From Escherichia coli 042 (GTDB lineage: Bacteria; Pseudomonadota; Gammaproteobacteria; Enterobacterales; Enterobacteriaceae), in assembly GCF_000027125.1 (NCBI RefSeq), contig NC_017626.1: a stretch of 64,000 bases of DNA; one strand, written 5' to 3'. This document shows positions 22,293-34,556 of this stretch, piece after piece. Both the position numbers and the translations under genes were made by a program. How positions within the stretch are numbered: the first letter of the stretch is position 1; each line of letters begins with the position of its first letter. The notes below the pieces were generated by a model, which had not been told where the DNA came from, made no database searches, and worked only from the letters and a program-made list of their open reading frames with translations.

Positions 22293-23558
22293 ATGCTCAC
22301 GAAAAAGAAATGGGCGTTATTTAGTCTATTAACATTGTGTGGCGGTACAATTTATAAATTACCGTCGCTGAAAGATGCGTTTTATATCCCGATGCAGGAA
22401 TATTTCCATTTGACCAATGGTCAAATTGGTAATGCTATGTCGGTAAACTCATTTGTCACGACAGTGGGCTTTTTTCTGTCTATTTATTTTGCCGATAAAC
22501 TACCGCGCAGATACACCATGTCATTCTCACTCATTGCGACAGGATTACTGGGTGTTTATTTGACGACAATGCCGGGATATTGGGGCATCCTCTTTGTCTG
22601 GGCGCTATTTGGCGTTACTTGCGACATGATGAACTGGCCGGTCTTGCTCAAGTCGGTAAGTCGATTGGGCAATAGCGAACAACAAGGTCGGTTGTTTGGC
22701 TTCTTCGAAACAGGGCGTGGCATTGTCGATACCGTGGTGGCATTTTCTGCGTTGGCAGTATTTACCTGGTTTGGCAGTGGCTTATTGGGTTTTAAAGCAG
22801 GCATCTGGTTCTATTCCCTTATTGTGATTGCCGTAGGCATTATCATTTTCTTTGTTCTGAATGACAAAGAAGAGGCACCGTCCGTTGAGGTGAAAAAAGA
22901 AGACGGAGCATCGAAAAACACCAGTATGACCTCGGTGCTGAAAGACAAAACTATCTGGCTTATCGCTTTCAACGTCTTCTTCGTTTACGCGGTTTACTGT
23001 GGCCTGACATTCTTCATTCCATTCCTGAAAAACATCTATCTATTGCCCGTTGCGCTGGTGGGGGCTTACGGCATCATTAACCAATACTGTCTGAAAATGA
23101 TTGGTGGACCGATTGGTGGCATGATTTCAGATAAGATCCTGAAATCGCCGAGTAAATATCTATGCTACACCTTTATCATCAGTACCGCTGCGCTCGTACT
23201 GTTGATTATGCTGCCGCACGAAAGTATGCCGGTATATTTAGGGATGGCATGTACGCTGGGCTTTGGCGCGATAGTCTTTACACAGCGAGCCGTATTTTTT
23301 GCACCTATCGGCGAAGCAAAAATTGCTGAAAATAAAACAGGCGCGGCGATGGCGTTGGGTAGCTTTATTGGTTACGCCCCGGCGATGTTCTGCTTCAGTC
23401 TGTATGGCTACATTCTGGATTTAAATCCGGGGATTATTGGCTACAAAATCGTGTTTGGCATTATGGCCTGCTTCGCATTCTGTGGTGCGGTGGTTTCCGT
23501 AATGCTGGTTAAGCGTATTAGCCAACGTAAGAAAGAGATGCTGGCGGCTGAAGCTTGA
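22293..23558 (+). CDS. yihN: MFS-type transporter YihN
   Basis: 421-aa ORF, about 12 predicted TM helices. Confidence 0.82.
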   Translation: MLTKKKWALFSLLTLCGGTIYKLPSLKDAFYIPMQEYFHLTNGQIGNAMSVNSFVTTVGFFLSIYFADKLPRRYTMSFSLIATGLLGVYLTTMPGYWGILFVWALFGVTCDMMNWPVLLKSVSRLGNSEQQGRLFGFFETGRGIVDTVVAFSALAVFTWFGSGLLGFKAGIWFYSLIVIAVGIIIFFVLNDKEEAPSVEVKKEDGASKNTSMTSVLKDKTIWLIAFNVFFVYAVYCGLTFFIPFLKNIYLLPVALVGAYGIINQYCLKMIGGPIGGMISDKILKSPSKYLCYTFIISTAALVLLIMLPHESMPVYLGMACTLGFGAIVFTQRAVFFAPIGEAKIAENKTGAAMALGSFIGYAPAMFCFSLYGYILDLNPGIIGYKIVFGIMACFAFCGAVVSVMLVKRISQRKKEMLAAEA

Positions 23559-23562
23559 TTAA

Positions 23563-23642
23563 TGGCCGGATGTGGCTTAATCCGGCCAACGGAAACCGTA
23601 TCAACCGTAGGCCGGATAAGGCGTTTTCGCCGCATCCGGCAG
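23563..23642. repeat. REP/BIME palindromic elements
   Basis: GGCCGGATGTGGCTTAATCCGGCC and GCCGGATAAGGCGTTTTCGCCGCATCCGGC. Confidence 0.7.
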
Positions 23643-23649
23643 TTTTACA

Positions 23650-24342
23650 TCAGAAGAAATACTTCGTCCCGATACGAATCTGGTTTTGCTCGCGGTGGTA
23701 CGGTTCGACATTACGATCTAACCAGCGTAATTCGAAATAAGGGAGCCAGTGTTCATTAATGCGATAACGGAAGGTGTTAGTGATTTCCCAGTGATGATCT
23801 TTTCCATTGCTGCTATTAAAGTCATTTACTCGCATGAAGTAATGTGGTTCAAATGTATAGGAGAATTTCTCGGTGATTTTAAAATTCCAGTAGGTGCCAA
23901 CTTCATAGGTGTCGTTATTATCCAATTCGCCGTTCAAATCTGTAGAGCTGTAATTATTATGGTTATAGCGATTACGCACCGTCAGGTTAAACCACGGAGT
24001 AAATTTGTAGTTAACATCCAGATAAACGGCACCACCCGAACCGATACTCTTGTCATTAATTAAGCCACCGGGCTGGATGGTTAATTTATCGGTTGGTTTA
24101 AATAAAGGATACCAACCTTCAATTTCATTATAGCCATGTTTGAGTTCATCTTCTCGCTGAAAGGTGTAGGTATTGGTTAACATAATACCCGCGCCCATAT
24201 CGAAGTTATAACCCACGCGTAGCATAACTTCGCCCTGATCGGAGGCGAGATTATATGCCTCCCTGTTTTCGACGTATGCGCCAGCAAATACCGAGGCAGA
24301 GGTCAGAGAGGATAATAGAATTATTGCATTAATCTTTTTCAT
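23650..24342 (-). CDS. ompL: Outer-membrane porin OmpL
   Basis: 230-aa product from MKKINAIILLSSLTSASVFA (signal peptide); C-terminal ...GTKYFF beta-barrel signature. Confidence 0.85.
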   Translation of the reverse strand: MKKINAIILLSSLTSASVFAGAYVENREAYNLASDQGEVMLRVGYNFDMGAGIMLTNTYTFQREDELKHGYNEIEGWYPLFKPTDKLTIQPGGLINDKSIGSGGAVYLDVNYKFTPWFNLTVRNRYNHNNYSSTDLNGELDNNDTYEVGTYWNFKITEKFSYTFEPHYFMRVNDFNSSNGKDHHWEITNTFRYRINEHWLPYFELRWLDRNVEPYHREQNQIRIGTKYFF

Positions 24343-24408
24343 AATAAGTCCATTTTTAAACGTAGGGAGGCCGCCACCCACCAGGATGGAAATAGCGGCT
24401 ATTGACAT

Positions 24409-25812
24409 TTATAACGTTACGGAAGCCGTTTTTTCTTCTGTCGCCATCTCTTTATTTTTGCGTTGGTTGATTTCCTCAATAATCAATGCAAACCGTTTTT
24501 CATTGAGTGTGTAAAAGAATCCCATCGTTAATGCAGCAATAATTGCCAGCGCACAAGGCCAGATAAAAATGAGCTGACGCAAACCCTGTAATGTCGCATC
24601 ACTTTGCGCGATGTTGGGAACATAACCGATTTGCGTCAGCATAATGCCTGGCAAGAAGCCAGCAAGTGCGGCAGAAATTTTACGAAAGAAGGTATAACCG
24701 GTATAAACAGAACCTTCGGCACGAATACCGGTTTTCCATTCACCGTAATCTACGGTATCTGGTACCAGCGCCCAGTTCAGGCTGTTCACAAAGGCCGTGC
24801 CAAAAAAGGCGACACAAGAGAACATGACAAAAGTGAAAGAGTTACTTCCCCAGAAATAATTCAGGATATCACCAACCGCCCATAGCACCATGCCAGCTAA
24901 ATAAACCTGTTTTTTACCAAAACATTTTACAGTTAATGGCACCAGTAATACGCCGACGAGGATACATCCCATACTGAAAAATCCCATCCACGACAATAAA
25001 TTAATATCATTCAGCACATATTGGGTGTAATAGACCTGAATCGCCAGTTTGATATTAAATGCCGCCAGGGTACACAGGTTAGCAATGCACAAAACCAGCA
25101 ATGGCGGATTACGAAATATCGCGCAAAAAGATTTGAGAATACTGGCTTTATGTCCGGTTGGCGCTGTGTCCACATAATGCTCTTTGACGCCTCTGTAGCA
25201 CAGCATCATAAAAATAAAGCCACCAATGGAGAACATCAGTGCCGCGCAGGCATAACCGACGGTGGAGTCAGAAAAAAGCGACTGCAACGGAATAAACGCC
25301 ACGGTACAAATCAATAGCCCTATGGTTGCACCACCCTGGCGGTAAGCCGCGAGCTGCGCGCGCTCATTCGGGTTTTTGGTAATGGCCGGGATCATCGCGC
25401 CATACGAGCAGTTCATCAGACTGTATGAAAGCCCAAACATCATAAACAGTGCTGTGGCAATCGTCGTTTTAACCGGCAAACTAAAAGTGGTGGCGATAAA
25501 CTGGAGCGTTGCAATTAACGCCGCCGGAACCGCTGCGTATAAAATAAACGGCCTGAACTTTCCTTTAGGCCCAATATTTTTCCGCGAATCGAGTAAAAAT
25601 CCGGTGAGCATATCGGTAAACGCGGTAAAAAACTTCGCCACCAGAAAGATAATCCCGCCATAGTAAGCAGGCATCCCTAATTCATCGGTATAAAATTTGA
25701 GGAGATACAGAGTGCCGATGCTAAGCATTAAATTCGAACCGACGTCGCCCATGCCATAGGCGATTTTTTCCCGCAGATTCAGTTTTAATGTCAGTGGATT
25801 ATGGTCAGACAT
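24409..25812 (-). CDS. yihO: GPH-family sugar:cation symporter YihO (sulfoquinovose cluster)
   Basis: 467-aa product MSDHNPLTLKLNLREKIAYG...; paralogous to yihP. Confidence 0.88.
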   Translation of the reverse strand: MSDHNPLTLKLNLREKIAYGMGDVGSNLMLSIGTLYLLKFYTDELGMPAYYGGIIFLVAKFFTAFTDMLTGFLLDSRKNIGPKGKFRPFILYAAVPAALIATLQFIATTFSLPVKTTIATALFMMFGLSYSLMNCSYGAMIPAITKNPNERAQLAAYRQGGATIGLLICTVAFIPLQSLFSDSTVGYACAALMFSIGGFIFMMLCYRGVKEHYVDTAPTGHKASILKSFCAIFRNPPLLVLCIANLCTLAAFNIKLAIQVYYTQYVLNDINLLSWMGFFSMGCILVGVLLVPLTVKCFGKKQVYLAGMVLWAVGDILNYFWGSNSFTFVMFSCVAFFGTAFVNSLNWALVPDTVDYGEWKTGIRAEGSVYTGYTFFRKISAALAGFLPGIMLTQIGYVPNIAQSDATLQGLRQLIFIWPCALAIIAALTMGFFYTLNEKRFALIIEEINQRKNKEMATEEKTASVTL

Positions 25813-25852
25813 AATCACTCCTTATAACGCCCCGCAGGGCGTTGTTTATTAT

Positions 25853-27238
25853 TTATTCCGTGCGTTTACGGGCTTCTATTTCTTCAACAATGCGGACGTA
25901 CATTTTCTCGTTCAGACTGTAGAAACAACCCATCGCAACAATGGTGACTACCGCCAGTGCGCTTGGGTAGATGAAGATCAGCTGGCGTAAACCTTCGATG
26001 GTATGGTCAGCCTGGGCGACGTTTGGCACATAGCCGATTTGCGTCAGCATCCAGCCTGGGAAGAAACCTGCCAGCGCCTGAGATACTTTGCGAAAGAAGG
26101 TGAAGCCGGTGTAGACCGTACCTTCCGAACGCACACCGGTGCGCCACTCGCCGTACTCGACGGTGTCGGAAACCAGCGCCCAGTTCAGGCTGTTAACAAA
26201 CGCCGAGCCGAAGAATGCCAGGCAGGAGAACGCCACAAAGCTGACCGAGCCGCCGCCGAAGAAATAGTTGAGCAGATCGCCCAGCACCCAAATCAGCAGG
26301 CCGCCGATATAGACCTTCTTCTTACCAAAACGTCTGACTGCGCCAGGCATCAGGAACACGCCGATGAAAATACAGCCCATGCTGAAAAATCCCATATACG
26401 ACAACAGGATGGGATCGTTAAGTACGTACTGGGTGTAATAGACCTGGATGGCGAGCTTGACGTTAAACGCCCCTAAAGTGCAGAGGTTGGCAATGCACAG
26501 AATGAACAGCGGGCGGTTACCGGCAATTGCGCGGAAAGATTGCAACAGGCCTGGCTTTTGCGCCGGATTGGTAGGTTGGGTTTCGACATAACGCTCTTTC
26601 ACGCCCGAGTAGCAGATCCACATAAACAGCAGGCCGAACAGTGAAAACAGCGTGGCAGCGAAGATATAGCCAATTTGCTGATTACCTTCGATAAGATTCA
26701 TAACCGGCACGAATCCCACCGTACACAGCAGTAAGCCCAATGTAGCGCCACCCTGACGCCATGCTGCCAGCGATGCGCGTTCGTTGGGGTTTTTGGTAAT
26801 AGCGGGGACCATTGCGCCGTAGGAGCAGTTCATCATGCTGAAAAACAGCCCGTAGAGCATAAACAGAATAGTGGCCATCACCGTTTTACCGGTGACATCA
26901 AACGGTGTGCCGACAAAGTTGGCGATCGCCAGCAGAGTGACCGGGAATGATGCATACAGAATAAAAGGGCGGAATTTGCCTTTTGGACCGATCTTGCGCC
27001 GGGAATCGAGCATGATGCCGGTACCCATATCGGTAAAGGCGGTAAAGAATTTCGAGATCAAAAAGATAATGCCGCCATAGGTGCCGGGCAGCCCCAGAAC
27101 GTCGGTATAAAACTTCAAAAGATAAAGCGTGCCGATATCCAGCAGGATGTTAGAGGCCAGATCGCCGATACCGTAAGAGAGTTTCTCTTTAAAGGGCAGA
27201 CGTAAAGTAGCCGGATCTTCCGTTGTGATGTGACTCAT
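25853..27238 (-). CDS. yihP: GPH-family sugar:cation symporter YihP (sulfoquinovose cluster)
   Basis: Product from MSHITTEDPATLRLPFKEKLSYG; paralog of yihO. Confidence 0.88.
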   Translation of the reverse strand: MSHITTEDPATLRLPFKEKLSYGIGDLASNILLDIGTLYLLKFYTDVLGLPGTYGGIIFLISKFFTAFTDMGTGIMLDSRRKIGPKGKFRPFILYASFPVTLLAIANFVGTPFDVTGKTVMATILFMLYGLFFSMMNCSYGAMVPAITKNPNERASLAAWRQGGATLGLLLCTVGFVPVMNLIEGNQQIGYIFAATLFSLFGLLFMWICYSGVKERYVETQPTNPAQKPGLLQSFRAIAGNRPLFILCIANLCTLGAFNVKLAIQVYYTQYVLNDPILLSYMGFFSMGCIFIGVFLMPGAVRRFGKKKVYIGGLLIWVLGDLLNYFFGGGSVSFVAFSCLAFFGSAFVNSLNWALVSDTVEYGEWRTGVRSEGTVYTGFTFFRKVSQALAGFFPGWMLTQIGYVPNVAQADHTIEGLRQLIFIYPSALAVVTIVAMGCFYSLNEKMYVRIVEEIEARKRTE

Positions 27239-27283
27239 CGTTGTTCTCCCTTTGCCCGTGAGTTTCCCCACGGGCGGACGTGA

Positions 27284-29320
27284 TTAGATGCTTTTTAACG
27301 ACGCGAACAGTGCCGCCCATTCGCTATCGGCGCGATAAAAGACCGGCGGTTTACCGATGGGCGCATTAACGGTCACTTCCCCGCCCCGGAACGCTTCACC
27401 TGTCCAGGCGTGGACCCAGTTATCCTCCGGAAGATAGAGCGTCCAGTCGCTACGGCCTTGTTCATGCACCGGAGCGACCAGAATGTCGCGGCCTAACAGG
27501 TACTGATATTTCAGGGTGTAGGTCTGCGCATCGTCTTCGTAATGCAGGAACAGCGGGCGCATAACCGGCAGGCCGGACTTCGCATTCAGCGCGACGGCCT
27601 CTTTCAGGTAAGGTTTCAGGGTGGTGAAGACGGTGGTCATACGGGCAAAATGGGCAATAGTTTCCGCGTCGCCGTCAAACTGCCAGTTGTCGCCCGGGCG
27701 GTTGCCTTCGTGGGTGCGCATCATCGGCGTGAAGGCGCTGAAATCACACCAGCGCAGCAGCAGCTCTTTGCTACGCTTCATCTCAAACAGGGTGGTATAA
27801 CCGCCAATGTCACTGTGATGCAAACCATGTCCGGTCATTGCCAGCGACAGCGCTGCCGGGACGACCGACGCCAGGCCATCGTCGAGACTCCAGTCGACGT
27901 TCTGGTCGCCCGCCCACATCATAGTGGAGTATTTCTGGCTATCGGTAGAACCGGCGCGCATAAAGAAAAGGATCTCGCCAAGCTTGTCCGTTTCTTCAAG
28001 GGCTTCGTAGTTACATTTCGCCCACAGTGCGGGCCAGGCGTTATGCATAATTTCCGCGCTGACGCCGTTATGCAGGTAAGTGTCGGTGGGCAGATACTCG
28101 CCGAAGTCAGCCATCCAGCCGCCGCAGCCGAGTTCAATCATGTTCTTTTTGATCACTTCCTTGAACCAGGCGTAGGCTTCCGGATTAGTGAGATCGACAA
28201 CGCCGCCGTAAAACTCGCCAAACTCCACCAGATAGTCACCGCCAGAGGCATCTTTTGCCAGATAGCCGTGTTGTGCCGCTTCTTCGCAGAGATCTTTATC
28301 GCTGGCGACATATGGGTTGATATAGGCCAGGAACTGAACGCCCTCTTTGTTCCACTGCTTAATACGTGAGTCCAGTTGCGGATAGTTTTCGCTGTTCCAC
28401 TTCCAGTTCCACATTACGCGTTTGCCAAAAGAGGTCATACGGATCCCGGACCAGTCCTGCGCCCAGATACCGTTAACCTTCACACCCGCGTTACGCATGG
28501 TGTCCAGTTTCTTCTGACACACTTCCGTCCCACCCTGAATGCCGAGCGTTACCCCGTCATAAATCCAGTCGGGCAGTTCTGGCTGGCGTCCCAGCAGGGC
28601 AGTTAATTTTTCCAGCAGGGAGATGTATGTGTCAGCACATTCAAAACGTAGCGTAGCTTTGTCTTCCCACAGCGCCAGTTCATGGTATTCCGGGGCGCTA
28701 AAGTCGAAGTTCATGTAGCAACTGTTATCAACATGGCAGTAATACTTCTGCGTGCTGACAAACGTAGGCTGTGGGAAGAAAGTCCAGTAATAGTCGCCGC
28801 CCGCATTTTCTTTGCAGTCGGCCTGCCAGGTGACATAGGTTTGTTTGTTGCGACCAACGCCTTGTTCACTGGTCCATAGCGGGAACGGTTTGCCGCGCAG
28901 ATCGAAGTAGGAAAACTGTTCGCCGCAGCCGTAGATATGGTCCTCTGGTTGAGCGGCAAGGCGCAGCCAGATGCGGTTGTGGTTAAGGTTGTCGTTTTGT
29001 AGTTCCAGCAATAAACGGCCCTGATCGTCAGCAGAGATACGCAGCGTGGCGCTAATGTCAGAACCACGGCTGAAATGGATTAACCAACCATCCGGTGACT
29101 GGCTGACGATGGCGTCGGTAAGCGCAATTTTCTCCTGTAGTTTATCTTTAATGCTGAAATTGCCGCGGAACATATCGATATCCGCAATACCTGAACCAAT
29201 CCATAAACAAGGATTATCTTTGCTATGGGTTAAAATAAGACGCTGTTGAAAATGTAGGGTAAAACTGTCGTTATTCTGATGAAACTGAAAATCTGGTAAT
29301 TGTGGGCGTGGCGTATCCAT
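27284..29320 (-). CDS. yihQ: Sulfoquinovosidase (GH31 alpha-glycosidase) YihQ
   Basis: 678-aa ORF with GH31-like WAQDWSG/WMADFGE motifs. Confidence 0.9.
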   Translation of the reverse strand: MDTPRPQLPDFQFHQNNDSFTLHFQQRLILTHSKDNPCLWIGSGIADIDMFRGNFSIKDKLQEKIALTDAIVSQSPDGWLIHFSRGSDISATLRISADDQGRLLLELQNDNLNHNRIWLRLAAQPEDHIYGCGEQFSYFDLRGKPFPLWTSEQGVGRNKQTYVTWQADCKENAGGDYYWTFFPQPTFVSTQKYYCHVDNSCYMNFDFSAPEYHELALWEDKATLRFECADTYISLLEKLTALLGRQPELPDWIYDGVTLGIQGGTEVCQKKLDTMRNAGVKVNGIWAQDWSGIRMTSFGKRVMWNWKWNSENYPQLDSRIKQWNKEGVQFLAYINPYVASDKDLCEEAAQHGYLAKDASGGDYLVEFGEFYGGVVDLTNPEAYAWFKEVIKKNMIELGCGGWMADFGEYLPTDTYLHNGVSAEIMHNAWPALWAKCNYEALEETDKLGEILFFMRAGSTDSQKYSTMMWAGDQNVDWSLDDGLASVVPAALSLAMTGHGLHHSDIGGYTTLFEMKRSKELLLRWCDFSAFTPMMRTHEGNRPGDNWQFDGDAETIAHFARMTTVFTTLKPYLKEAVALNAKSGLPVMRPLFLHYEDDAQTYTLKYQYLLGRDILVAPVHEQGRSDWTLYLPEDNWVHAWTGEAFRGGEVTVNAPIGKPPVFYRADSEWAALFASLKSI

Positions 29321-29427
29321 AAATAATCTCCATAGAGTATAAAGCTAATATTTCATGCCATCCTGTTGTTACAGGTTTCATTAATTAAAGAATGTGTGCG
29401 GGTATAAATTAAAACCCGCATAAGTGA

Positions 29428-30303
29428 TTATTTACTTTCTTCAGCCCGGCGGATTGCCGCCACTTTTTTACCAAATGCCAGTTGCAGTATAACTAACAAG
29501 GTAAACGGAGGCAGAAGTGCGGCAGCGGCGGGAATTCCCAGTGCGCCTTTTATCAACATAGAACCGGAGGCAATCAGCAACAAAAAGACCATCACACGGA
29601 ACACTTTGACTGAAATGCGTTTATGCACATATTGTCCAACCAGTGAACCGAGGATCATGGTGGGAATACAAAACAGCACCAGTTTAAAGATAGAAACAGT
29701 CAAAATTCCGCTGGTCGCCAGCCCGCCGATCACCGCGATGTTGTTTGCGGTGAAGAAAGCGTTCAGAGTGCCACGAAATGCCGCCGGGCCTAAGTTACGC
29801 AGCATACCGTAGATAACCATCGGCGGTCCGTTGGTTGAGAACGCCGCGCCTAATGCGCCAGCTACTGCGCCGATAGGTGCGGCGATCCAGTTACGGTCAT
29901 AAATCGGCAGGCGAGGAATAAACATGCTGTAAAACGAGTAAAGGATAAGGAATCCGCCTAAGCCCACTTTCATAAAATGGTCGGGTAAATACGACAGCGC
30001 ATATAAACCGACGGGTATTCCCAGAAACGAGAAAATAATCAGTACCATTGCCGATCGCCAATCCGTTTCTTTACGTGACAGCCAGGTGGCGTACAAGGCG
30101 GTCGCGGTGCCGACAATCACCGAGAGCGGAGTTGCCATTTTTACGGGGAGCATTAACGTGACGAGCGGCATAGTGGTTAAACCACCGCCAAATCCCGCGC
30201 ATATCCCCACAAAGGTATAAAGAAACATTAACGCGATAACGATACATACCACGCTTGTTTCCACCATGGCCCCATCCGGCGAAAATAACGTAAAAAAGTC
30301 CAT
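29428..30303 (-). CDS. TSUP (TauE/SafE, DUF81)-family anion permease; candidate sulfonate/sulfite exporter
   Basis: 291-aa polytopic membrane protein with two glycine-rich TSUP repeats (AGFGGGLTTMPL; GAVAGALGAAFSTNGPPM); co-directional between yihQ and yihR. Confidence 0.7.
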   Translation of the reverse strand: MDFFTLFSPDGAMVETSVVCIVIALMFLYTFVGICAGFGGGLTTMPLVTLMLPVKMATPLSVIVGTATALYATWLSRKETDWRSAMVLIIFSFLGIPVGLYALSYLPDHFMKVGLGGFLILYSFYSMFIPRLPIYDRNWIAAPIGAVAGALGAAFSTNGPPMVIYGMLRNLGPAAFRGTLNAFFTANNIAVIGGLATSGILTVSIFKLVLFCIPTMILGSLVGQYVHKRISVKVFRVMVFLLLIASGSMLIKGALGIPAAAALLPPFTLLVILQLAFGKKVAAIRRAEESK

Positions 30304-30363
30304 AATATTTCCTGTTGTGTAAATACAACCCTAAACAATGATCTCGTTCTTTTCTTAATAAAA

Positions 30364-31275
30364 TTAATTGTGCTGCCCGTGAATATTAAAAAACAGGCGG
30401 TGCGTTTTTCCTGGTTCCAGTAATAATAAGTCGATACCTGAATTAAAGGCGTTAGGCGGGCAACTCATAGGTTCAACTGCCAGTCCCTGACGCTGTAATT
30501 TTTCACCGCTATAAACCTGCACCCAGGGTTGATCGGAACAGAGGCTCACCGAAAGCGCCTGTTGTGGATGGGTAATGGTTATTTCCCACAGATCATTAGC
30601 GGTTTTAAAGGTATGGTCTATTTTTGTCGCGGCTATTTTTGTCGCCCGCGTGAAATTTAAATTCAGCTCATCAACGTGGTGAAGCGTTGTCGGATTTGCG
30701 TGCTCATCGACGGCATAAACCTGTTCTGCCGGAAGCTGGAAAAGATAGTCATCAACAGATGTTAAGTTGCAGGTTAAATAAGGATGAATACCCACACCAT
30801 AAGGTGCGGTCACAGTACCAATATTCTGGCTTGCGATCTCAACGGAAAGGCCCGTGCGAGCGTTGAGCGAATAAACAACCTGCGAAGCCAGCATAAACGG
30901 ATAGCCGTAACTGGGCGGCAGAAAAGCTGTCAGGGTAACGCTGGTGGCGGTTAATTCGCTAATTTGCCAGTCACGCCAGGCAAGCAGCCCGTGAATAGCG
31001 GCTTTTGAACTATGTTCATTAATGGGTAACTGATAGTCCTGCCCCTGATAGCGGTAACAGCCGTTGGCGATCCGGTTCGGCCACGGAATAAGCACTTTAC
31101 CCAGATGCGCCAGCGGCATCTCTTCGGGTTTGTGCGGGATGACTAAATGACAACCCTGAAAGGTTAATTCAGCCAGACCAGCACCAACCGTCACGATAGT
31201 CGCGTGATAATCCCCCGCGGCAAGTGAAACGGTTTGTCCACTGCAATGCATGTTGGTGATTTGCATACGAGGCAC
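30364..31275 (-). CDS. yihR: Aldose-1-epimerase-family mutarotase YihR
   Basis: 303-aa ORF in expected position. Confidence 0.85.
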   Translation of the reverse strand: MPRMQITNMHCSGQTVSLAAGDYHATIVTVGAGLAELTFQGCHLVIPHKPEEMPLAHLGKVLIPWPNRIANGCYRYQGQDYQLPINEHSSKAAIHGLLAWRDWQISELTATSVTLTAFLPPSYGYPFMLASQVVYSLNARTGLSVEIASQNIGTVTAPYGVGIHPYLTCNLTSVDDYLFQLPAEQVYAVDEHANPTTLHHVDELNLNFTRATKIAATKIDHTFKTANDLWEITITHPQQALSVSLCSDQPWVQVYSGEKLQRQGLAVEPMSCPPNAFNSGIDLLLLEPGKTHRLFFNIHGQHN

Positions 31276-31333
31276 CTTTATTGAATAACGACATACCCGG
31301 CATGTAGCCTGATATGCCGTTATTTCAGCTCAG

Positions 31334-32575
31334 TTATTTCGCGTTAATGTCCAGCAGGCCTGCGGCAACAGCCGGTGCCAGACCAGGGGCTAACGGGATA
31401 CGCGGGATCACCAGGCAATGCAGCAGGTGATAAATATCCTGTTTGCCGTCCCAGACTTTCGTGGTGACTTTATTGTCCGCATCCAGCTCCTGCCACCAGG
31501 AACCATTTTCATAGTCCATCAGGTACTTAATGCAGTAGTCCCACCATGTCTGATACCAGGTTTCATACTGGCGATCGCCGGTGACGGTGTAGAGCGCGTA
31601 AGCCGTACCCATCGCTTCGACGATAGGCCAACGCACACGTTCGCGAACCACCGGTTTGCCTTCCCAGTCAACGGTATAAACAATCCCGTCCGCGCCATCG
31701 GGTGCCCAGGCATCGCGCACGGTGGCGTTAAATAGACCTTTGGCATCTTCTAGCAGCCAGGCAGGCGGCTGTTCACAACGGGCTTCCAGGGCCGCGTGGA
31801 TGTGCAGCATTAAACGGCCCCATTCGATCCAGTGGCCCGGCGTGCCACCGAATGCGCGGAAGCGGTGCGCCGGGTTATCTTTGTTGTAATCCGGCAGCGG
31901 ATTCCACTGGGTATCGAAGTGCTCGTTAACGCGATAATGATTATTTCTGGCGACGTCGTGGATAATCACGGAAGCCACGCGAATCGCGCGATCCAGCCAT
32001 TTTTTGTCGTGCGTTACGTCATAAACAATCAGGAAGGCTTCCACCGCGTGCATGTTGGCATTGCCGCCGCGGTACTCTTCGGTTTTGCTGAAGGCTTCGT
32101 CCCACGACTCCAGGCACATCTGCTCTTCTTCACTCCAGAAATATTTTTCAATAATTTCAATGGTGTAATCGAGCAGCTTGCGTGCTTCCGGGTGACCGGT
32201 AGTGACGGCACTGGCGGCACCCAGCAGAGCAAAGAAGTGTTGATAGCCTTGTTTGGAGGCATCCACCACGCCCTCGTCATTCACGCAGGCATACCAGCCG
32301 CCATATTTTTTATCGCGCAGTGCGCCATTCATGGCTTTGATACCGTGATCAACCAACGAGTAAGCGCCAGGGCGGCCCATCGCCGCAGCAACGGAATAAA
32401 CGTGCAGCATACGGGCGGTGATCCACAGATGCGTGCCCATCTCTTCTTTGATTTGCCCTTTATTGCCCAGCCAGCCAAAGCCAGTCGGCACTACGGCATT
32501 CTTACCAAAATCAAAGATGCGATCGGTTTCCTGTTCCAGCCAGCGGTTGTGACTTAAGGTGTTAAACCATTTCAT
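31334..32575 (-). CDS. yihS: Sulfoquinovose isomerase YihS
   Basis: 413-aa ORF; N-acylglucosamine 2-epimerase-like fold. Confidence 0.9.
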
Positions 32576-32590
32576 TTTTGTATCCCCATC

Positions 32591-33469
32591 TTAACGGCGT
32601 TTAGCCATCATTTCGTCGACGATATCGCCAAGTTGTTGTAATTTCGGTGCGCAAACGTCACGCAGCATCAGCTCGTTGTCTGGTAAACCGACAACCGATG
32701 CCCAGACGGCACGACCAGCCAGGAAGCCCGATGCACCCGCTGTCATTGCCACGCGTACGGCACGCGGGAACAGTTTTTCGTCGACACCGGAAGAAAGTAT
32801 CACCCACGGCATATTGATATGGTCATTCAGACGTTGTGAAGCACTGAGAAGCTCTTGTTGCGGACCTTTACCGTAAAGCGGCATTTCAACTTTGTAGAGG
32901 TCAGCGCCACTGTCGCCCAGCTCTTTGGCAGCATCGATGATCGCTTGTTCGCGATCGAATTTATCGCCACGACGTGGTGGGCGGACGACTGGCTCAATAA
33001 TGCTTACCAGGCCGTGTGAGTGGCACAGTTCGTTAAACTCTTTCACCATATCCAGACGTTGCTGCGCATCTTCATCACTACGCCACAGCACCAGCAGTTT
33101 TAAGGCTTTGCCACCGTCTTGTTTGATTTGTAGCGGATTGATTTTGCGGTCAATGACCACGCTATCTACCGGAATACCGTTGCCAGGAATGAACTCATCG
33201 GCGGCGACAATCATGGCGCAACTTTTGGCAATCGCGTTTTGCTCAACCACCTGGCGGTAACAGAATTGTTGATCTACCAGAATCGCCGAGGCATAAGGCG
33301 AGAGGGTCTTCGCCGCGTTAACTTTGAAATCAGTTAAAACGCTATCGGCTACCGGAGCGGGTGCGCCAGCCGCAGCAAACATCATGCGCATGGCTTCGCG
33401 CTGATCGACCGCCAGCATGGCAAAACCGCCCGATGCGCGCGTAATGTCGTTGATGGTGTACTTATTCAT
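32591..33469 (-). CDS. yihT: 6-deoxy-6-sulfofructose-1-phosphate aldolase YihT
   Basis: 292-aa ORF; class I aldolase-like. Confidence 0.9.
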
Positions 33470-33492
33470 TCATTTATTCCTTTATCCAGTCG

Positions 33493-34389
33493 TTACATTT
33501 TTACTTTGGCAGTCATCCCGGCACTGACACGGACCTGTTCCAGAATGGCGGACCAGTCCTGGCGACCGCGACCCGCTGCGCGCGCCTGGCTATAAACCTC
33601 CCGTGAGGCGGCCCCCAGCGGCATTGGCACATGCAGCTGGTTGGCGACATCAAGGGCGATACCAAGATCCTTATGGGCAAGATCGATCATGAAGGCGGGA
33701 GAAAGATCCCCGCTGAGGACTTTGTTTGGCCAGGAAGTGGTGAAGTGGCCTTTACCGGCGGCGGTGCCGCTCATCACCTTGACGGCAACATCGAAGGGAA
33801 GATTCAGGGCTTCGCACAAAACGGCGGCTTCTGCCGAAAGCGCATTGAGCGCGATGCTCATGTAGTTGTTGATGAGCTTAACGCGGATCCCCATGCCCGG
33901 GCCGCCCGCGTTGATCAACTCACTGCCCATCGCCATCAGGATCGGTGTGGCGCGTTCAACTTGTTCAGCGGTGCCGCCAGCCAGCAGTAACAGAGTACCG
34001 GTAATGGCATTGGCGGAAGTACGGCCTACCGGAACATCCATCATGCTGAAGCCTTTGGCTTGCATATCGGCAATCAATTTATCGGTTTGCAGCGGATGGA
34101 TGGTCGACATATCGATGACCAGCGCATCGGTAGATAAGCTTTCGCAAACGCCGTTTTCACCGAACAACACGCTGCGCACCAGATCGCCATTCGGCAACAT
34201 GGTAATGATAAATTCGGCATCTTTAGCGGCCTGCGCCGGGTTGGCGGCGGGAGTCGCACCTTTGTCTACCAGATGCCGCACAGCTTCGGCGTTCACATCA
34301 AAGACGCGAAGTTGATGCCCTTGCTGCAATAAATTGCTCGCCATTGGCGAACCCATTTGTCCTAAACCGATAAACGCGATTGCTGCCAT
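33493..34389 (-). CDS. yihU: 3-sulfolactaldehyde reductase YihU
   Basis: 298-aa ORF; N-terminal Rossmann motif [10 protein letters not shown]. Confidence 0.9.
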
Positions 34390-34556
34390 AACCCTCTCCT
34401 GAATACAGTGATGTCACTTTTTGTCATTTATGACATGCTTTGCTTGTCTGTTTTTGATCGTATTTGTAATTTATCGTCAAAAAATTGACAGCCGTCACTT
34501 TTTAAACAATTGGTAAAATTAAAATGAACGCATCCCAAAATGCTTAAGGAATGACC

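What the first reader, a model, noticed from the sequence alone, without database searches (positions are those of the whole stretch)
29428..30303. TSUP/TauE-SafE-family permease embedded in the sulfoquinovose (yih) catabolic cluster
Seen in sequence: a 291-aa polytopic membrane protein with the duplicated glycine-rich motifs typical of the TSUP/DUF81 family lies co-directionally between yihQ (sulfoquinovosidase) and yihR (mutarotase). Established knowledge: TSUP/TauE members export sulfite or small organosulfonates in other sulfonate pathways, and the sulfo-EMP pathway excretes 2,3-dihydroxypropane sulfonate (DHPS). Inference: this is a candidate DHPS (or sulfolactate/sulfite) exporter. To my recollection the K-12 cluster runs yihO-yihP-yihQ-yihR with no gene here, so this may be a strain-variable accessory gene; that recollection is not verified.
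Basis: partly seen in the sequence, partly recalled or inferred. Interest (0 to 1): 0.5.

Follow-up and report, generated by a model that had tools for sequence, protein, structure and literature searches.

The report
Overlooked sulfonate exporter gene in yih cluster
A real, conserved TauE/TSUP-family membrane transporter gene sits inside the sulfoquinovose-degradation operon of about a quarter of E. coli strains and of Salmonella. It is missing from K-12, and it is most likely the exporter for the pathway's waste product DHPS, so it is a useful but unsurprising addition to a known pathway.

Summary
Window 29428-30303 (- strand) is an intact 291-aa ORF matching Pfam TauE (E 4.7e-35), lying co-directionally between yihR and yihQ.

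RefSeq already annotates it as "sulfite exporter TauE/SafE family protein". K-12 lacks it and has an unrelated 198-bp spacer instead. Among 5426 complete E. coli genomes:
- 1295 carry the gene.
- 2634 carry the K-12-type spacer.
- About 1450 lack this junction altogether.

The gene is probably ancestral rather than acquired. Salmonella and E. whittamii have it at the same position, with divergence typical of the other yih genes, and it is under purifying selection (dN/dS 0.03-0.11).

Its orthologues (77-99% identical; next relatives ≤38%) sat in sulfoquinovose clusters in all 13 taxa examined: sulfo-EMP clusters in 5 and sulfo-ED-type clusters in 8. Every cluster has a YihU-type reductase and none has an aldehyde dehydrogenase. 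The pathway's shared end product, 2,3-dihydroxypropanesulfonate (DHPS), is therefore the best-guess substrate. Transport is untested, and K-12 excretes DHPS without this gene.

The searchable sulfoglycolysis literature never mentions the gene. I rate it a new member of a known kind, of modest interest.

The parts
29428..30303 (-). tauE-like gene (TSUP / TauE-SafE family permease, 291 aa), the finding itself
   Evidence: ORF. Pfam PF01925 E 4.7e-35. RefSeq CDS WP_000345433.1 at identical coordinates. AlphaFold pLDDT 92.7 with two five-helix halves plus an extra C-terminal helix at residues 259-290. dN/dS 0.03-0.11.
30304..30363 (-). yihR-tauE spacer (60 bp) with Shine-Dalgarno AGGA at 30310-30313
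   Evidence: Sequence. No sigma-70-like promoter or terminator consensus on the - strand. No AAAAAGTGAC box.
29321..29427 (-). tauE-yihQ spacer (107 bp). It holds the hairpin GCGGGT/ACCCGC (29398-29419) and the palindrome CCTGTTGTTACAGG (29362-29375). The yihQ-proximal ~55 bp is shared with the K-12 allele.
   Evidence: Fold -22.8 kcal/mol, z -2.3. Palindrome listed and retained in the K-12, MEI003 and B-strain spacers. No canonical terminator on the - strand.
27284..29320 (-). yihQ, sulfoquinovosidase (downstream neighbour)
   Evidence: RefSeq annotation of the 100%-identical strain; 99.0% aa identity to K-12 YihQ.
30364..31266 (-). yihR, sulfoquinovose mutarotase (upstream neighbour)
   Evidence: RefSeq annotation; 95.6% aa identity to K-12 YihR.
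31334..34389 (-). yihS (31334-32575), yihT (32591-33469) and yihU (33493-34389): isomerase, aldolase and SLA reductase, the promoter-proximal part of the same-strand gene string
23650..27238 (-). ompL (23650-24342), yihO (24409-25812) and yihP (25853-27238): a porin and two GPH/MFS_2 symporter-family transporters, the distal part of the gene string
   Evidence: Pfam MFS_2 assignments for the Salmonella orthologues.
34390..34556 (.). Divergent yihU/yihV control region with two exact AAAAAGTGAC boxes (34413-34422 and 34494-34503, - strand); the presumed source of transcription reaching tauE
   Evidence: The motif occurs exactly 3 times in the 64 kb, all in the regions reported to bind CsqR (the reported binding regions are in PMC12608037).
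34557..36272 (+). yihV (34557-35453) and csqR/yihW (35487-36272): kinase and DeoR-type repressor, with a third AAAAAGTGAC box at 35438-35447

Best explanation
The gene encodes an inner-membrane TSUP/TauE-family permease that is an integral, ancestral member of the enterobacterial sulfoquinovose operon. It most likely exports the pathway's sulfonated C3 end product, 2,3-dihydroxypropanesulfonate (DHPS), made by the YihU reductase.

It has no recognisable promoter of its own. It is probably transcribed as part of the long yihU-T-S-R-tauE-Q-P-O-ompL message from the CsqR-repressed yihU promoter, and so would be induced by sulfoquinovose.

K-12-type strains carry a derived allele in which the gene is replaced by about 145 bp of unrelated AT-rich sequence. 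They must export DHPS by another route (YihP/YihO or an unlinked carrier).

- Shown: the gene, its family, its fold prediction, its position, its population distribution, its conservation and its genomic associations.
- Inferred: substrate, direction of transport, co-transcription and regulation.
For: Family and fold:
- Pfam TauE E 4.7e-35.
- Confident AF2 model of a polytopic, internally duplicated membrane protein.

Position:
- Co-directional with its neighbours, with 60-bp and 107-bp spacers.
- No - strand promoter or terminator consensus and no CsqR-like box next to it.
- In Salmonella the equivalent string is treated as one operon driven from the yihU promoter and is derepressed about 100-fold in a yihW mutant (PMC7922415).
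- In K-12 all flanking genes, including yihR and yihQ, are induced on sulfoquinovose (PMC12608037).

Ancestry:
- Same position in Salmonella enterica and E. whittamii.
- E. coli-Salmonella identity of 86.3% sits within the 84-89% range of most of the other yih proteins.
- GC content is 49.8% against a window average of 50.0%.
- dN/dS is 0.03-0.11.
- The K-12 spacer allele is single-copy and very uniform (2361 of 2634 genomes ≥99% identical), whereas tauE alleles are more diverse.

Substrate:
- The orthologue group forms one isolated cluster at 50% identity; the next relatives are ≤38% identical and sit in unrelated contexts.
- In 13 of 13 taxa examined the gene lies in a sulfoquinovose cluster.
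- Five are sulfo-EMP clusters: E. coli, E. whittamii, Salmonella, Enterobacteriaceae RIT691 and Klebsiella quasipneumoniae.
- Eight are sulfo-ED-type clusters: Hafnia, Kluyvera, Mixta, Leminorella, Edwardsiella, Vibrio owensii, Enterobacter kobei and Pantoea.
- Both cluster types contain a beta-hydroxyacid-dehydrogenase-type reductase and no aldehyde dehydrogenase.
- TauE is the only closely orthologous protein (about 81%) shared by the two types.
- The sulfo-ED clusters and the Klebsiella cluster contain only one other transporter, a sugar-type symporter (SSF or MFS_2). That leaves TauE as the only candidate exporter.
- TauE-type proteins are the predicted sulfolactate/DHPS/isethionate exporters of other sulfoglycolysis clusters.
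Against: - No transport, expression or mutant data exist for this protein.
- Per, TSUP proteins as a family are 'poorly characterized'.
- K-12 lacks the gene yet excretes DHPS (citing Denger 2014), so the gene is not required for export. A 2026 review attributes export to YihP.
- The family name includes an uptake permease, so the direction of transport is not fixed by homology.
- The reductase in the sulfo-ED-type clusters is only about 29% identical to YihU and scores below every NCBIfam equivalog cut-off. DHPS as their product is therefore itself an inference.
- The K-12 spacer shows no clean deletion scar, so the direction of the change rests on outgroups only.
Confidence: 0.55

Rival explanations
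1. It is a broader C3-sulfonate or 'safety-valve' exporter. It would handle sulfolactate, DHPS or the reactive intermediate sulfolactaldehyde, rather than being DHPS-specific.
For: TauE-type proteins are proposed sulfolactate exporters elsewhere, and SftE is annotated as a 'predicted SL/DHPS exporter'. The specificity of TSUP proteins is essentially unknown.
Against: All 13 contexts have a reductase and none has an SLA dehydrogenase. The clade is ≤38% identical to all other TauE proteins, which therefore includes any in sulfolactate-producing clusters. Family-conserved positions are replaced in the clade: W171 to L, Q181 to N, H195 to L, N156 to S.
Confidence: 0.17
2. It is an importer of sulfoquinovose, sulfoquinovosyl glycerol or another sulfonate, as the 'uptake permease' in the TSUP name allows.
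For: Sulfoquinovose is the other compound common to both cluster types. Direction of transport cannot be read from sequence.
Against: Every cluster already carries a sugar-type symporter: YihO/YihP (MFS_2) or an SSF protein. K-12 grows on sulfoquinovose without the gene. Published proposals for TauE proteins in sulfoglycolysis clusters are all for export.
Confidence: 0.12
3. It is a sulfite exporter, as the RefSeq product name literally says.
For: The Pfam and RefSeq family name.
Against: Neither the sulfo-EMP nor the sulfo-ED-type clusters contain a C-S-cleaving enzyme. The pathways excrete the intact sulfonate and release no sulfite. The product name is a family label, and no NCBIfam equivalog model matches.
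Confidence: 0.05
4. It is a dispensable, decaying passenger gene with no current role.
For: It has been lost in about half of E. coli genomes and hit by IS1 in some strains. K-12 functions without it.
Against: The ORF is annotated as a full-length CDS in every full-length match listed. dN/dS is 0.03-0.11 within E. coli and against E. whittamii. It is 77-86% conserved out to Salmonella, Hafnia and Vibrio.
Confidence: 0.04

Closest known systems
TauE/SafE-type predicted organosulfonate exporters of other sulfoglycolysis clusters (SftE of the sulfo-TAL pathway, SqwE of sulfo-TK, TauE of Arthrobacter sulfo-EMP)
   Same: Same Pfam family (PF01925). Same genomic logic: a small TSUP permease encoded with the enzymes that generate a C2/C3 sulfonate destined for excretion.
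   Different: All other TauE-family proteins in a library of 1.84 billion proteins are ≤38% identical, so this is a separate clade. It has an extra C-terminal helix (residues 259-290) and replaces several family-conserved residues. It is restricted to Enterobacterales and Vibrio and to reductase-containing clusters, which are presumed to produce DHPS.
YihP and YihO of the E. coli K-12 yih cluster, the currently cited SQ importer and DHPS exporter
   Same: Same operon and the same proposed job. DHPS export is attributed to YihP in a 2026 review, and both are called 'putative'.
   Different: YihO and YihP are MFS_2/GPH-type symporter homologues, unrelated to TSUP. The sulfo-ED-type clusters and the Klebsiella cluster manage with one sugar symporter plus TauE. 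This suggests TauE, not a second GPH protein, is the conserved exporter.
[quoted passage not shown] 2025, PMC12608037)
   Same: Same locus and the same theme of structural polymorphism. Their short cassette (yihTUVW) probably accounts for the ~1450 genomes without this junction.
   Different: That paper never mentions TauE or TSUP (0 occurrences). The long cassette in fact exists in two forms: with tauE (1295 genomes) and with the K-12 spacer (2634 genomes).

Membership tests
TSUP / TauE-SafE family (Pfam PF01925) | Significant match to the family profile over most of its length | tested here: met
   E 4.7e-35, residues 23-248 against model positions 2-235 of 237.
TSUP / TauE-SafE family (Pfam PF01925) | Polytopic membrane protein built from two homologous halves | tested here: met
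   The AF2 model (pLDDT 92.7) has helices 16-36/40-49, 54-75, 82-105, 108-128 and then 138-155/159-168, 173-198, 203-227, 232-255, plus an extra helix at 259-290. Sequence-level half-against-half alignment is not significant (z -0.15).
TSUP / TauE-SafE family (Pfam PF01925) | Conserved glycine-rich motif at the break of the first helix of each half | tested here: met
   GFGGG at 37-41 and G145, G149, G159-P160. G37, F38, G39 and P160 are invariant in 75 sequences.
TSUP / TauE-SafE family (Pfam PF01925) | Transport of sulfite or an organosulfonate | not testable with these tools
   No assay is possible. No solved structure of the family was found by sequence or by fold at E ≤ 0.001.
Sulfo-EMP (yih) operon of Enterobacteriaceae | Encoded within the cluster, on the same strand as the catabolic genes, with conserved synteny in other genera | tested here: met
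   It lies between yihR and yihQ in E. coli, E. whittamii and Salmonella, and after yihQ in Klebsiella and RIT691.
Sulfo-EMP (yih) operon of Enterobacteriaceae | Co-transcription with the operon and induction by sulfoquinovose through CsqR | not testable with these tools
   Indirect evidence only: no own promoter, terminator or CsqR-like box, and neighbouring genes are induced in K-12 and derepressed in Salmonella yihW mutants.
Dedicated DHPS exporter (functional class) | Consistent genomic linkage to a sulfolactaldehyde-reducing step in independent pathway contexts | tested here: met
   13 of 13 taxa, across two pathway types, always with a beta-hydroxyacid-dehydrogenase-type reductase and never with an aldehyde dehydrogenase. 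The identity of the sulfo-ED-type reductase is itself inferred.
Dedicated DHPS exporter (functional class) | DHPS efflux depends on the protein | not testable with these tools
   K-12 excretes DHPS without it, so redundancy is expected.
Strain-variable (non-core) E. coli gene | Present in some and absent from other complete genomes at the same locus | tested here: met
   1295 of 5426 genomes carry tauE, always chromosomal and essentially single-copy. 2634 carry the K-12 spacer. K-12 MG1655 lacks the gene.

The most novel reading that the evidence does not exclude
This isolated TauE clade may be the original, dedicated DHPS exporter of enterobacterial sulfoglycolysis, in both the sulfo-EMP and the reductive sulfo-ED variants. 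On that reading the textbook K-12 cluster is a degenerate deletion allele. The customary assignment of YihP as the DHPS exporter would then be wrong or secondary, with YihO and YihP both acting as importers of sulfoquinovose and its glycosides. tauE+ lineages (O157:H7, Salmonella) would differ measurably from K-12-type strains in DHPS release, and hence in cross-feeding of sulfonate-respiring, H2S-producing gut bacteria.
Probability: 0.3. Interest if true: 0.5.

Novelty: new member of a known kind. Interest (0 to 1): 0.33.

Why it matters
Sulfoquinovose breakdown by Enterobacteriaceae feeds DHPS to sulfonate-respiring gut bacteria that make H2S, and the export step is the least-characterised part of the pathway.

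The model strain K-12, on which the pathway was defined, turns out to carry a derived allele that lacks a conserved transporter. That transporter is present in O157:H7-type E. coli, in Salmonella, and (as an 81% orthologue) in every reductive sulfo-ED cluster examined.

This gives a concrete, cheap experimental handle on DHPS export. It also adds a third structural class to the recently described long/short yih cassette polymorphism.

It does not reveal a new kind of system. TauE-type exporters are already the standard prediction for sulfonate efflux in other sulfoglycolysis clusters.

Tried and rejected
- **Internal repeat by sequence.** Aligning residues 1-140 against 141-291 gave z -0.15. 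The duplication is visible only in the motifs and the predicted structure.
- **Deletion scar in K-12.** Global, local and short-word alignments find significant similarity only in the ~55 bp next to yihQ. There is also a weak, non-significant resemblance around the tauE ribosome-binding site and ATG. The remaining ~145 bp is unrelated, so I do not claim a simple internal deletion. It is not a repeated element in E. coli.
- **Own promoter, terminator or CsqR box at tauE.** None was found on the - strand. The one-mismatch AAAAAGTGGC at 29459-29468 lies inside the CDS and I treat it as chance. The hairpin after the stop codon does not meet terminator criteria.
- **NCBIfam.** No family matched.
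- **PDB by sequence.** No hit at E ≤ 1.
- **PDB by fold.** Nothing at E ≤ 0.001. The best match is BacA/UppP with TM 0.46-0.50, which is not used as evidence.
- **Genome-contig scan.** It returned only 5 loci because the exact peptide patterns were too strict. I supplemented it with exact-protein look-ups.
- **Recent horizontal acquisition.** Rejected, because GC content is average and divergence from Salmonella matches the neighbouring genes.
- **Tying the cassette's high divergence to tauE presence.** Rejected, because the window, K-12 and O157 haplotypes are all mutually 4-6% diverged.
- **Primary papers.** Denger 2014 and Felux 2015 could not be retrieved. I therefore cannot exclude that their figures or supplements show this gene.

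Full report
**1. The observation**

The window is E. coli chromosome, 100% identical over the queried interval to strain CFSAN061763. It contains the whole sulfoquinovose (yih) cluster.
- On the - strand: ompL 23650-24342, yihO 24409-25812, yihP 25853-27238, yihQ 27284-29320, the ORF in question 29428-30303, yihR 30364-31266, yihS 31334-32575, yihT 32591-33469 and yihU 33493-34389.
- On the + strand: yihV 34557-35453 and csqR 35487-36272.

It is 291 codons, ATG to TAA, with AGGA 6 nt upstream of the start. It matches Pfam PF01925 (TauE) at E 4.7e-35 over residues 23-248. RefSeq already annotates it at the same coordinates as "sulfite exporter TauE/SafE family protein", WP_000345433.1.

An AlphaFold2 model built on a 75-sequence alignment is confident (pLDDT 92.7, pTM 0.88).
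- It shows two equivalent five-helix halves. The first helix of each half is broken at a glycine-rich motif: GFGGG at 37-41, and NGPP at 158-161 preceded by G145 and G149.
- G37, F38, G39 and P160 are invariant in the alignment.
- An eleventh helix (259-290) lies beyond the Pfam domain.
- The duplication is not detectable by simple sequence alignment of the two halves (z -0.15).

**2. K-12 and the E. coli population**

MG1655 has no gene between yihQ and yihR, only a 198-bp spacer where this window has 1043 bp. Counts among 5426 complete E. coli genomes:
- 1295 contain the tauE sequence, 1287 of them at ≥80% coverage. It is always chromosomal, never on a plasmid, and essentially single-copy.
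- 2634 contain the K-12-specific part of the spacer.
- About 40 have the flanks but other rearrangements.
- About 1450 have no match to this junction at all. This fits the "short" yihTUVW cassette described by Kaznadzey et al. 2025 (PMC12608037).

That paper, which is devoted to structural variation of this cassette, never mentions TauE or TSUP. So the "long" cassette really comes in two forms.

Sporadic further losses exist:
- IS1 replaces most of tauE and adjoining DNA in strain BE2-5.
- IS1 replaces the yihQ 5' end, tauE and the yihR 3' end in CFSAN064036.
- In the B-strain derivative NEBExpress, the K-12-type spacer is shortened and yihQ lacks its 5' end.

**3. Gain or loss?**

The gene lies in the same position (yihR-tauE-yihQ) in Salmonella enterica and in Escherichia whittamii. 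It lies one gene further along (yihQ-tauE-MFS_2) in Klebsiella quasipneumoniae and in an unnamed Enterobacteriaceae isolate.

Several measures argue against recent acquisition and for selection:
- E. coli-Salmonella protein identity is 86.3%, inside the 84-89% range of YihO, P, Q, T, U, V and CsqR.
- GC content is 49.8%, against 50.0% for the window.
- dN/dS is 0.05-0.11 between E. coli alleles and 0.03 against E. whittamii.
- The K-12-type spacer is strikingly uniform (2361 of 2634 genomes ≥99% identical). tauE alleles are more diverse relative to the window allele (339 at ≥99%, 955 at 95-99%).

All of this favours an ancestral gene and a single, younger, widely spread loss allele.

There is a caveat. 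The K-12 spacer shares significant similarity with the tauE+ interval only in the ~55 bp next to yihQ, including the palindrome CCTGTTRTTACAGG. There is also a weak resemblance around the tauE ribosome-binding site and ATG. About 145 bp is unrelated. The event was therefore not a clean internal deletion, and its direction rests on the outgroups.

**4. What the protein does**

An exhaustive HMMER search of 1.84 billion representative proteins shows that the orthologues form a single cluster at 50% identity. The next relatives are ≤38% identical and about 240 aa long. Two of those relatives that I looked up sit in unrelated neighbourhoods.

Members of the clade (77-99% identical) were examined in 13 taxa, and every one lies in a sulfoquinovose-catabolic cluster.
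- **Sulfo-EMP clusters (5 taxa):** E. coli, E. whittamii, Salmonella, RIT691 and Klebsiella.
- **A fixed nine-gene cluster (8 taxa):** Hafnia, Kluyvera, Mixta, Leminorella, Edwardsiella, Vibrio owensii, Enterobacter kobei and Pantoea. Its gene order is LacI regulator, SSF symporter, IlvD/Edd-type dehydratase, HpcH/HpaI aldolase, aldose epimerase, SGL lactonase, beta-hydroxyacid dehydrogenase, SDR dehydrogenase, TauE.

The second cluster has the enzyme families of the published sulfo-ED pathway (PF00920 dehydratase, PF03328 aldolase). Sulfo-ED clusters have been noted in Hafnia and Leminorella. In place of the sulfolactaldehyde dehydrogenase, however, it has a reductase-type protein. That protein is about 29% identical to YihU. 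Its best matches are tartronate-semialdehyde, 3-hydroxyisobutyrate and sulfolactaldehyde reductases, all below the equivalog cut-offs.

TauE is the only protein shared as a close orthologue (about 81%) between the two cluster types. What the two pathways have in common is the substrate, sulfoquinovose, and (by inference) the product, DHPS.

Each cluster already has a sugar-type symporter. The sulfo-ED-type and Klebsiella clusters have no other transporter. TauE-type proteins are the standard predicted exporters of sulfolactate, DHPS or isethionate in other sulfoglycolysis clusters. DHPS export is therefore the best-supported function, at about 0.55.

A literal sulfite exporter is unlikely, because neither pathway cleaves the C-S bond.

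**5. Regulation (inferred)**

No sigma-70-like promoter or intrinsic terminator is predicted on the - strand around the gene.

The motif AAAAAGTGAC occurs exactly three times in the 64 kb. All three are in the yihU/V and yihV/csqR spacers, which are the regions reported to bind CsqR. None lies near tauE.

In Salmonella the string is treated as one operon from the yihU promoter and is derepressed about 100-fold without YihW. In K-12, yihR and yihQ are both induced on sulfoquinovose. Co-transcription and sulfoquinovose induction of tauE are therefore likely but unshown.

**6. Against the hypothesis**

- K-12 excretes DHPS without this gene, and reviews attribute export to YihP. TauE is thus at most redundant in E. 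coli, and a single knockout may be silent.
- No TSUP protein has a solved structure that I could find, and the family is described as poorly characterised.
- Direction of transport cannot be read from sequence.

**7. Comparison and novelty**

This is a bona fide TSUP/TauE family member, with all testable membership features met. Functionally it parallels SftE, SqwE and TauE of other sulfoglycolysis clusters.

It differs from them in four ways:
- It is an isolated clade, ≤38% identical to all others.
- It has an added C-terminal helix.
- Several family-conserved residues are replaced: W171 to L, Q181 to N, H195 to L, N156 to S.
- It is confined to reductase-containing clusters of Enterobacterales and Vibrio.

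The gene is already annotated in more than a thousand genomes, and the concept is established. What is new is the following recognition, which is absent from the searchable literature (Denger 2014 and Felux 2015 could not be read):
- The reference K-12 cluster lacks a conserved pathway transporter.
- E. coli long cassettes are dimorphic for it.
- The same orthologue serves both sulfo-EMP and reductive sulfo-ED clusters.

**8. Verdict**

I rate it a new member of a known kind, with an interest score of about 0.33.

Noticed in passing
window 23500-33300 (ompL to yihT): The yih cassette is 4-8% nucleotide-diverged between this strain and K-12, while the flanking genes (yihM/N, yihX/Y, dtd) differ by about 1%. 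O157:H7, K-12 and the window haplotypes are all mutually 4-6% diverged in yihP/Q/R/S, so the locus holds several old haplotypes regardless of tauE status.
   Followed up: partly
L023 9906-11146 (E. coli O157:H7 Rafaela_II): yihS (sulfoquinovose isomerase) is annotated as a frameshifted pseudogene in this O157:H7 genome, although tauE and the rest of the cluster are intact. I did not check whether this is lineage-wide or an assembly error.
   Followed up: no
L015 (BE2-5), L027 (CFSAN064036), L025 (NEBExpress); equivalent to window ~29000-31000: The yihQ-yihR junction is a rearrangement hot spot. IS1 insertions with adjacent deletions remove tauE plus parts of its neighbours in two strains. The B-strain derivative NEBExpress has a yihQ lacking its 5' end, so B-type laboratory strains may lack sulfoquinovosidase.
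   Followed up: partly
window 34413-34422, 34494-34503, 35438-35447 (- strand): The 10-mer AAAAAGTGAC occurs exactly three times in the 64 kb, all within the yihU/yihV and yihV/csqR spacers. It is a candidate core of the CsqR operator. I did not compare it with published footprints.
   Followed up: partly
window 29362-29375: The perfect-stem palindrome CCTGTTGTTACAGG lies about 45 bp upstream of yihQ. It is retained (as CCTGTTATTACAGG) in the K-12, MEI003 and B-strain spacers even though everything further upstream is replaced. It is absent from the Salmonella spacer. It may be a yihQ-specific regulatory or RNA element.
   Followed up: no
L021 1-18876 (Enterobacter kobei contig): A sulfo-ED-type cluster ending in tauE lies only about 1.4 kb from a sulfo-EMP cluster (csqR-yihV / yihU-T-S-Q-MFS_2) that lacks yihR and tauE. 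One genome thus carries both sulfoquinovose pathways side by side with a single tauE and a single mutarotase.
   Followed up: no
L005-L009, L012-L014, L021, L022 (sulfo-ED-type clusters): The enterobacterial and Vibrio sulfo-ED-type clusters carry a beta-hydroxyacid-dehydrogenase-type reductase (about 29% identical to YihU) instead of the sulfolactaldehyde dehydrogenase of the published Pseudomonas pathway. This implies a DHPS-producing 'reductive sulfo-ED' variant. In Kluyvera it sits next to bipA-glnA, the same chromosomal neighbourhood as the Salmonella yih cluster.
   Followed up: partly
window 31267-31333 versus L002 9323-9459: The yihR-yihS spacer is 67 bp here but 137 bp in K-12, so a second indel difference between the two long-cassette haplotypes lies next to the tauE polymorphism. 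A GC-rich hairpin (CGGCATGTAGCCTGATATGCCG, 31298-31319) lies in this spacer.
   Followed up: no
tauE protein residues 252-291 (window 29431-29550): The clade has an extra C-terminal hydrophobic helix (residues 259-290) ending in a basic tail (KKVAAIRRAEESK). The ~240-aa TauE relatives lack it. Its role (topology change, oligomerisation or regulation) is unknown.
   Followed up: partly
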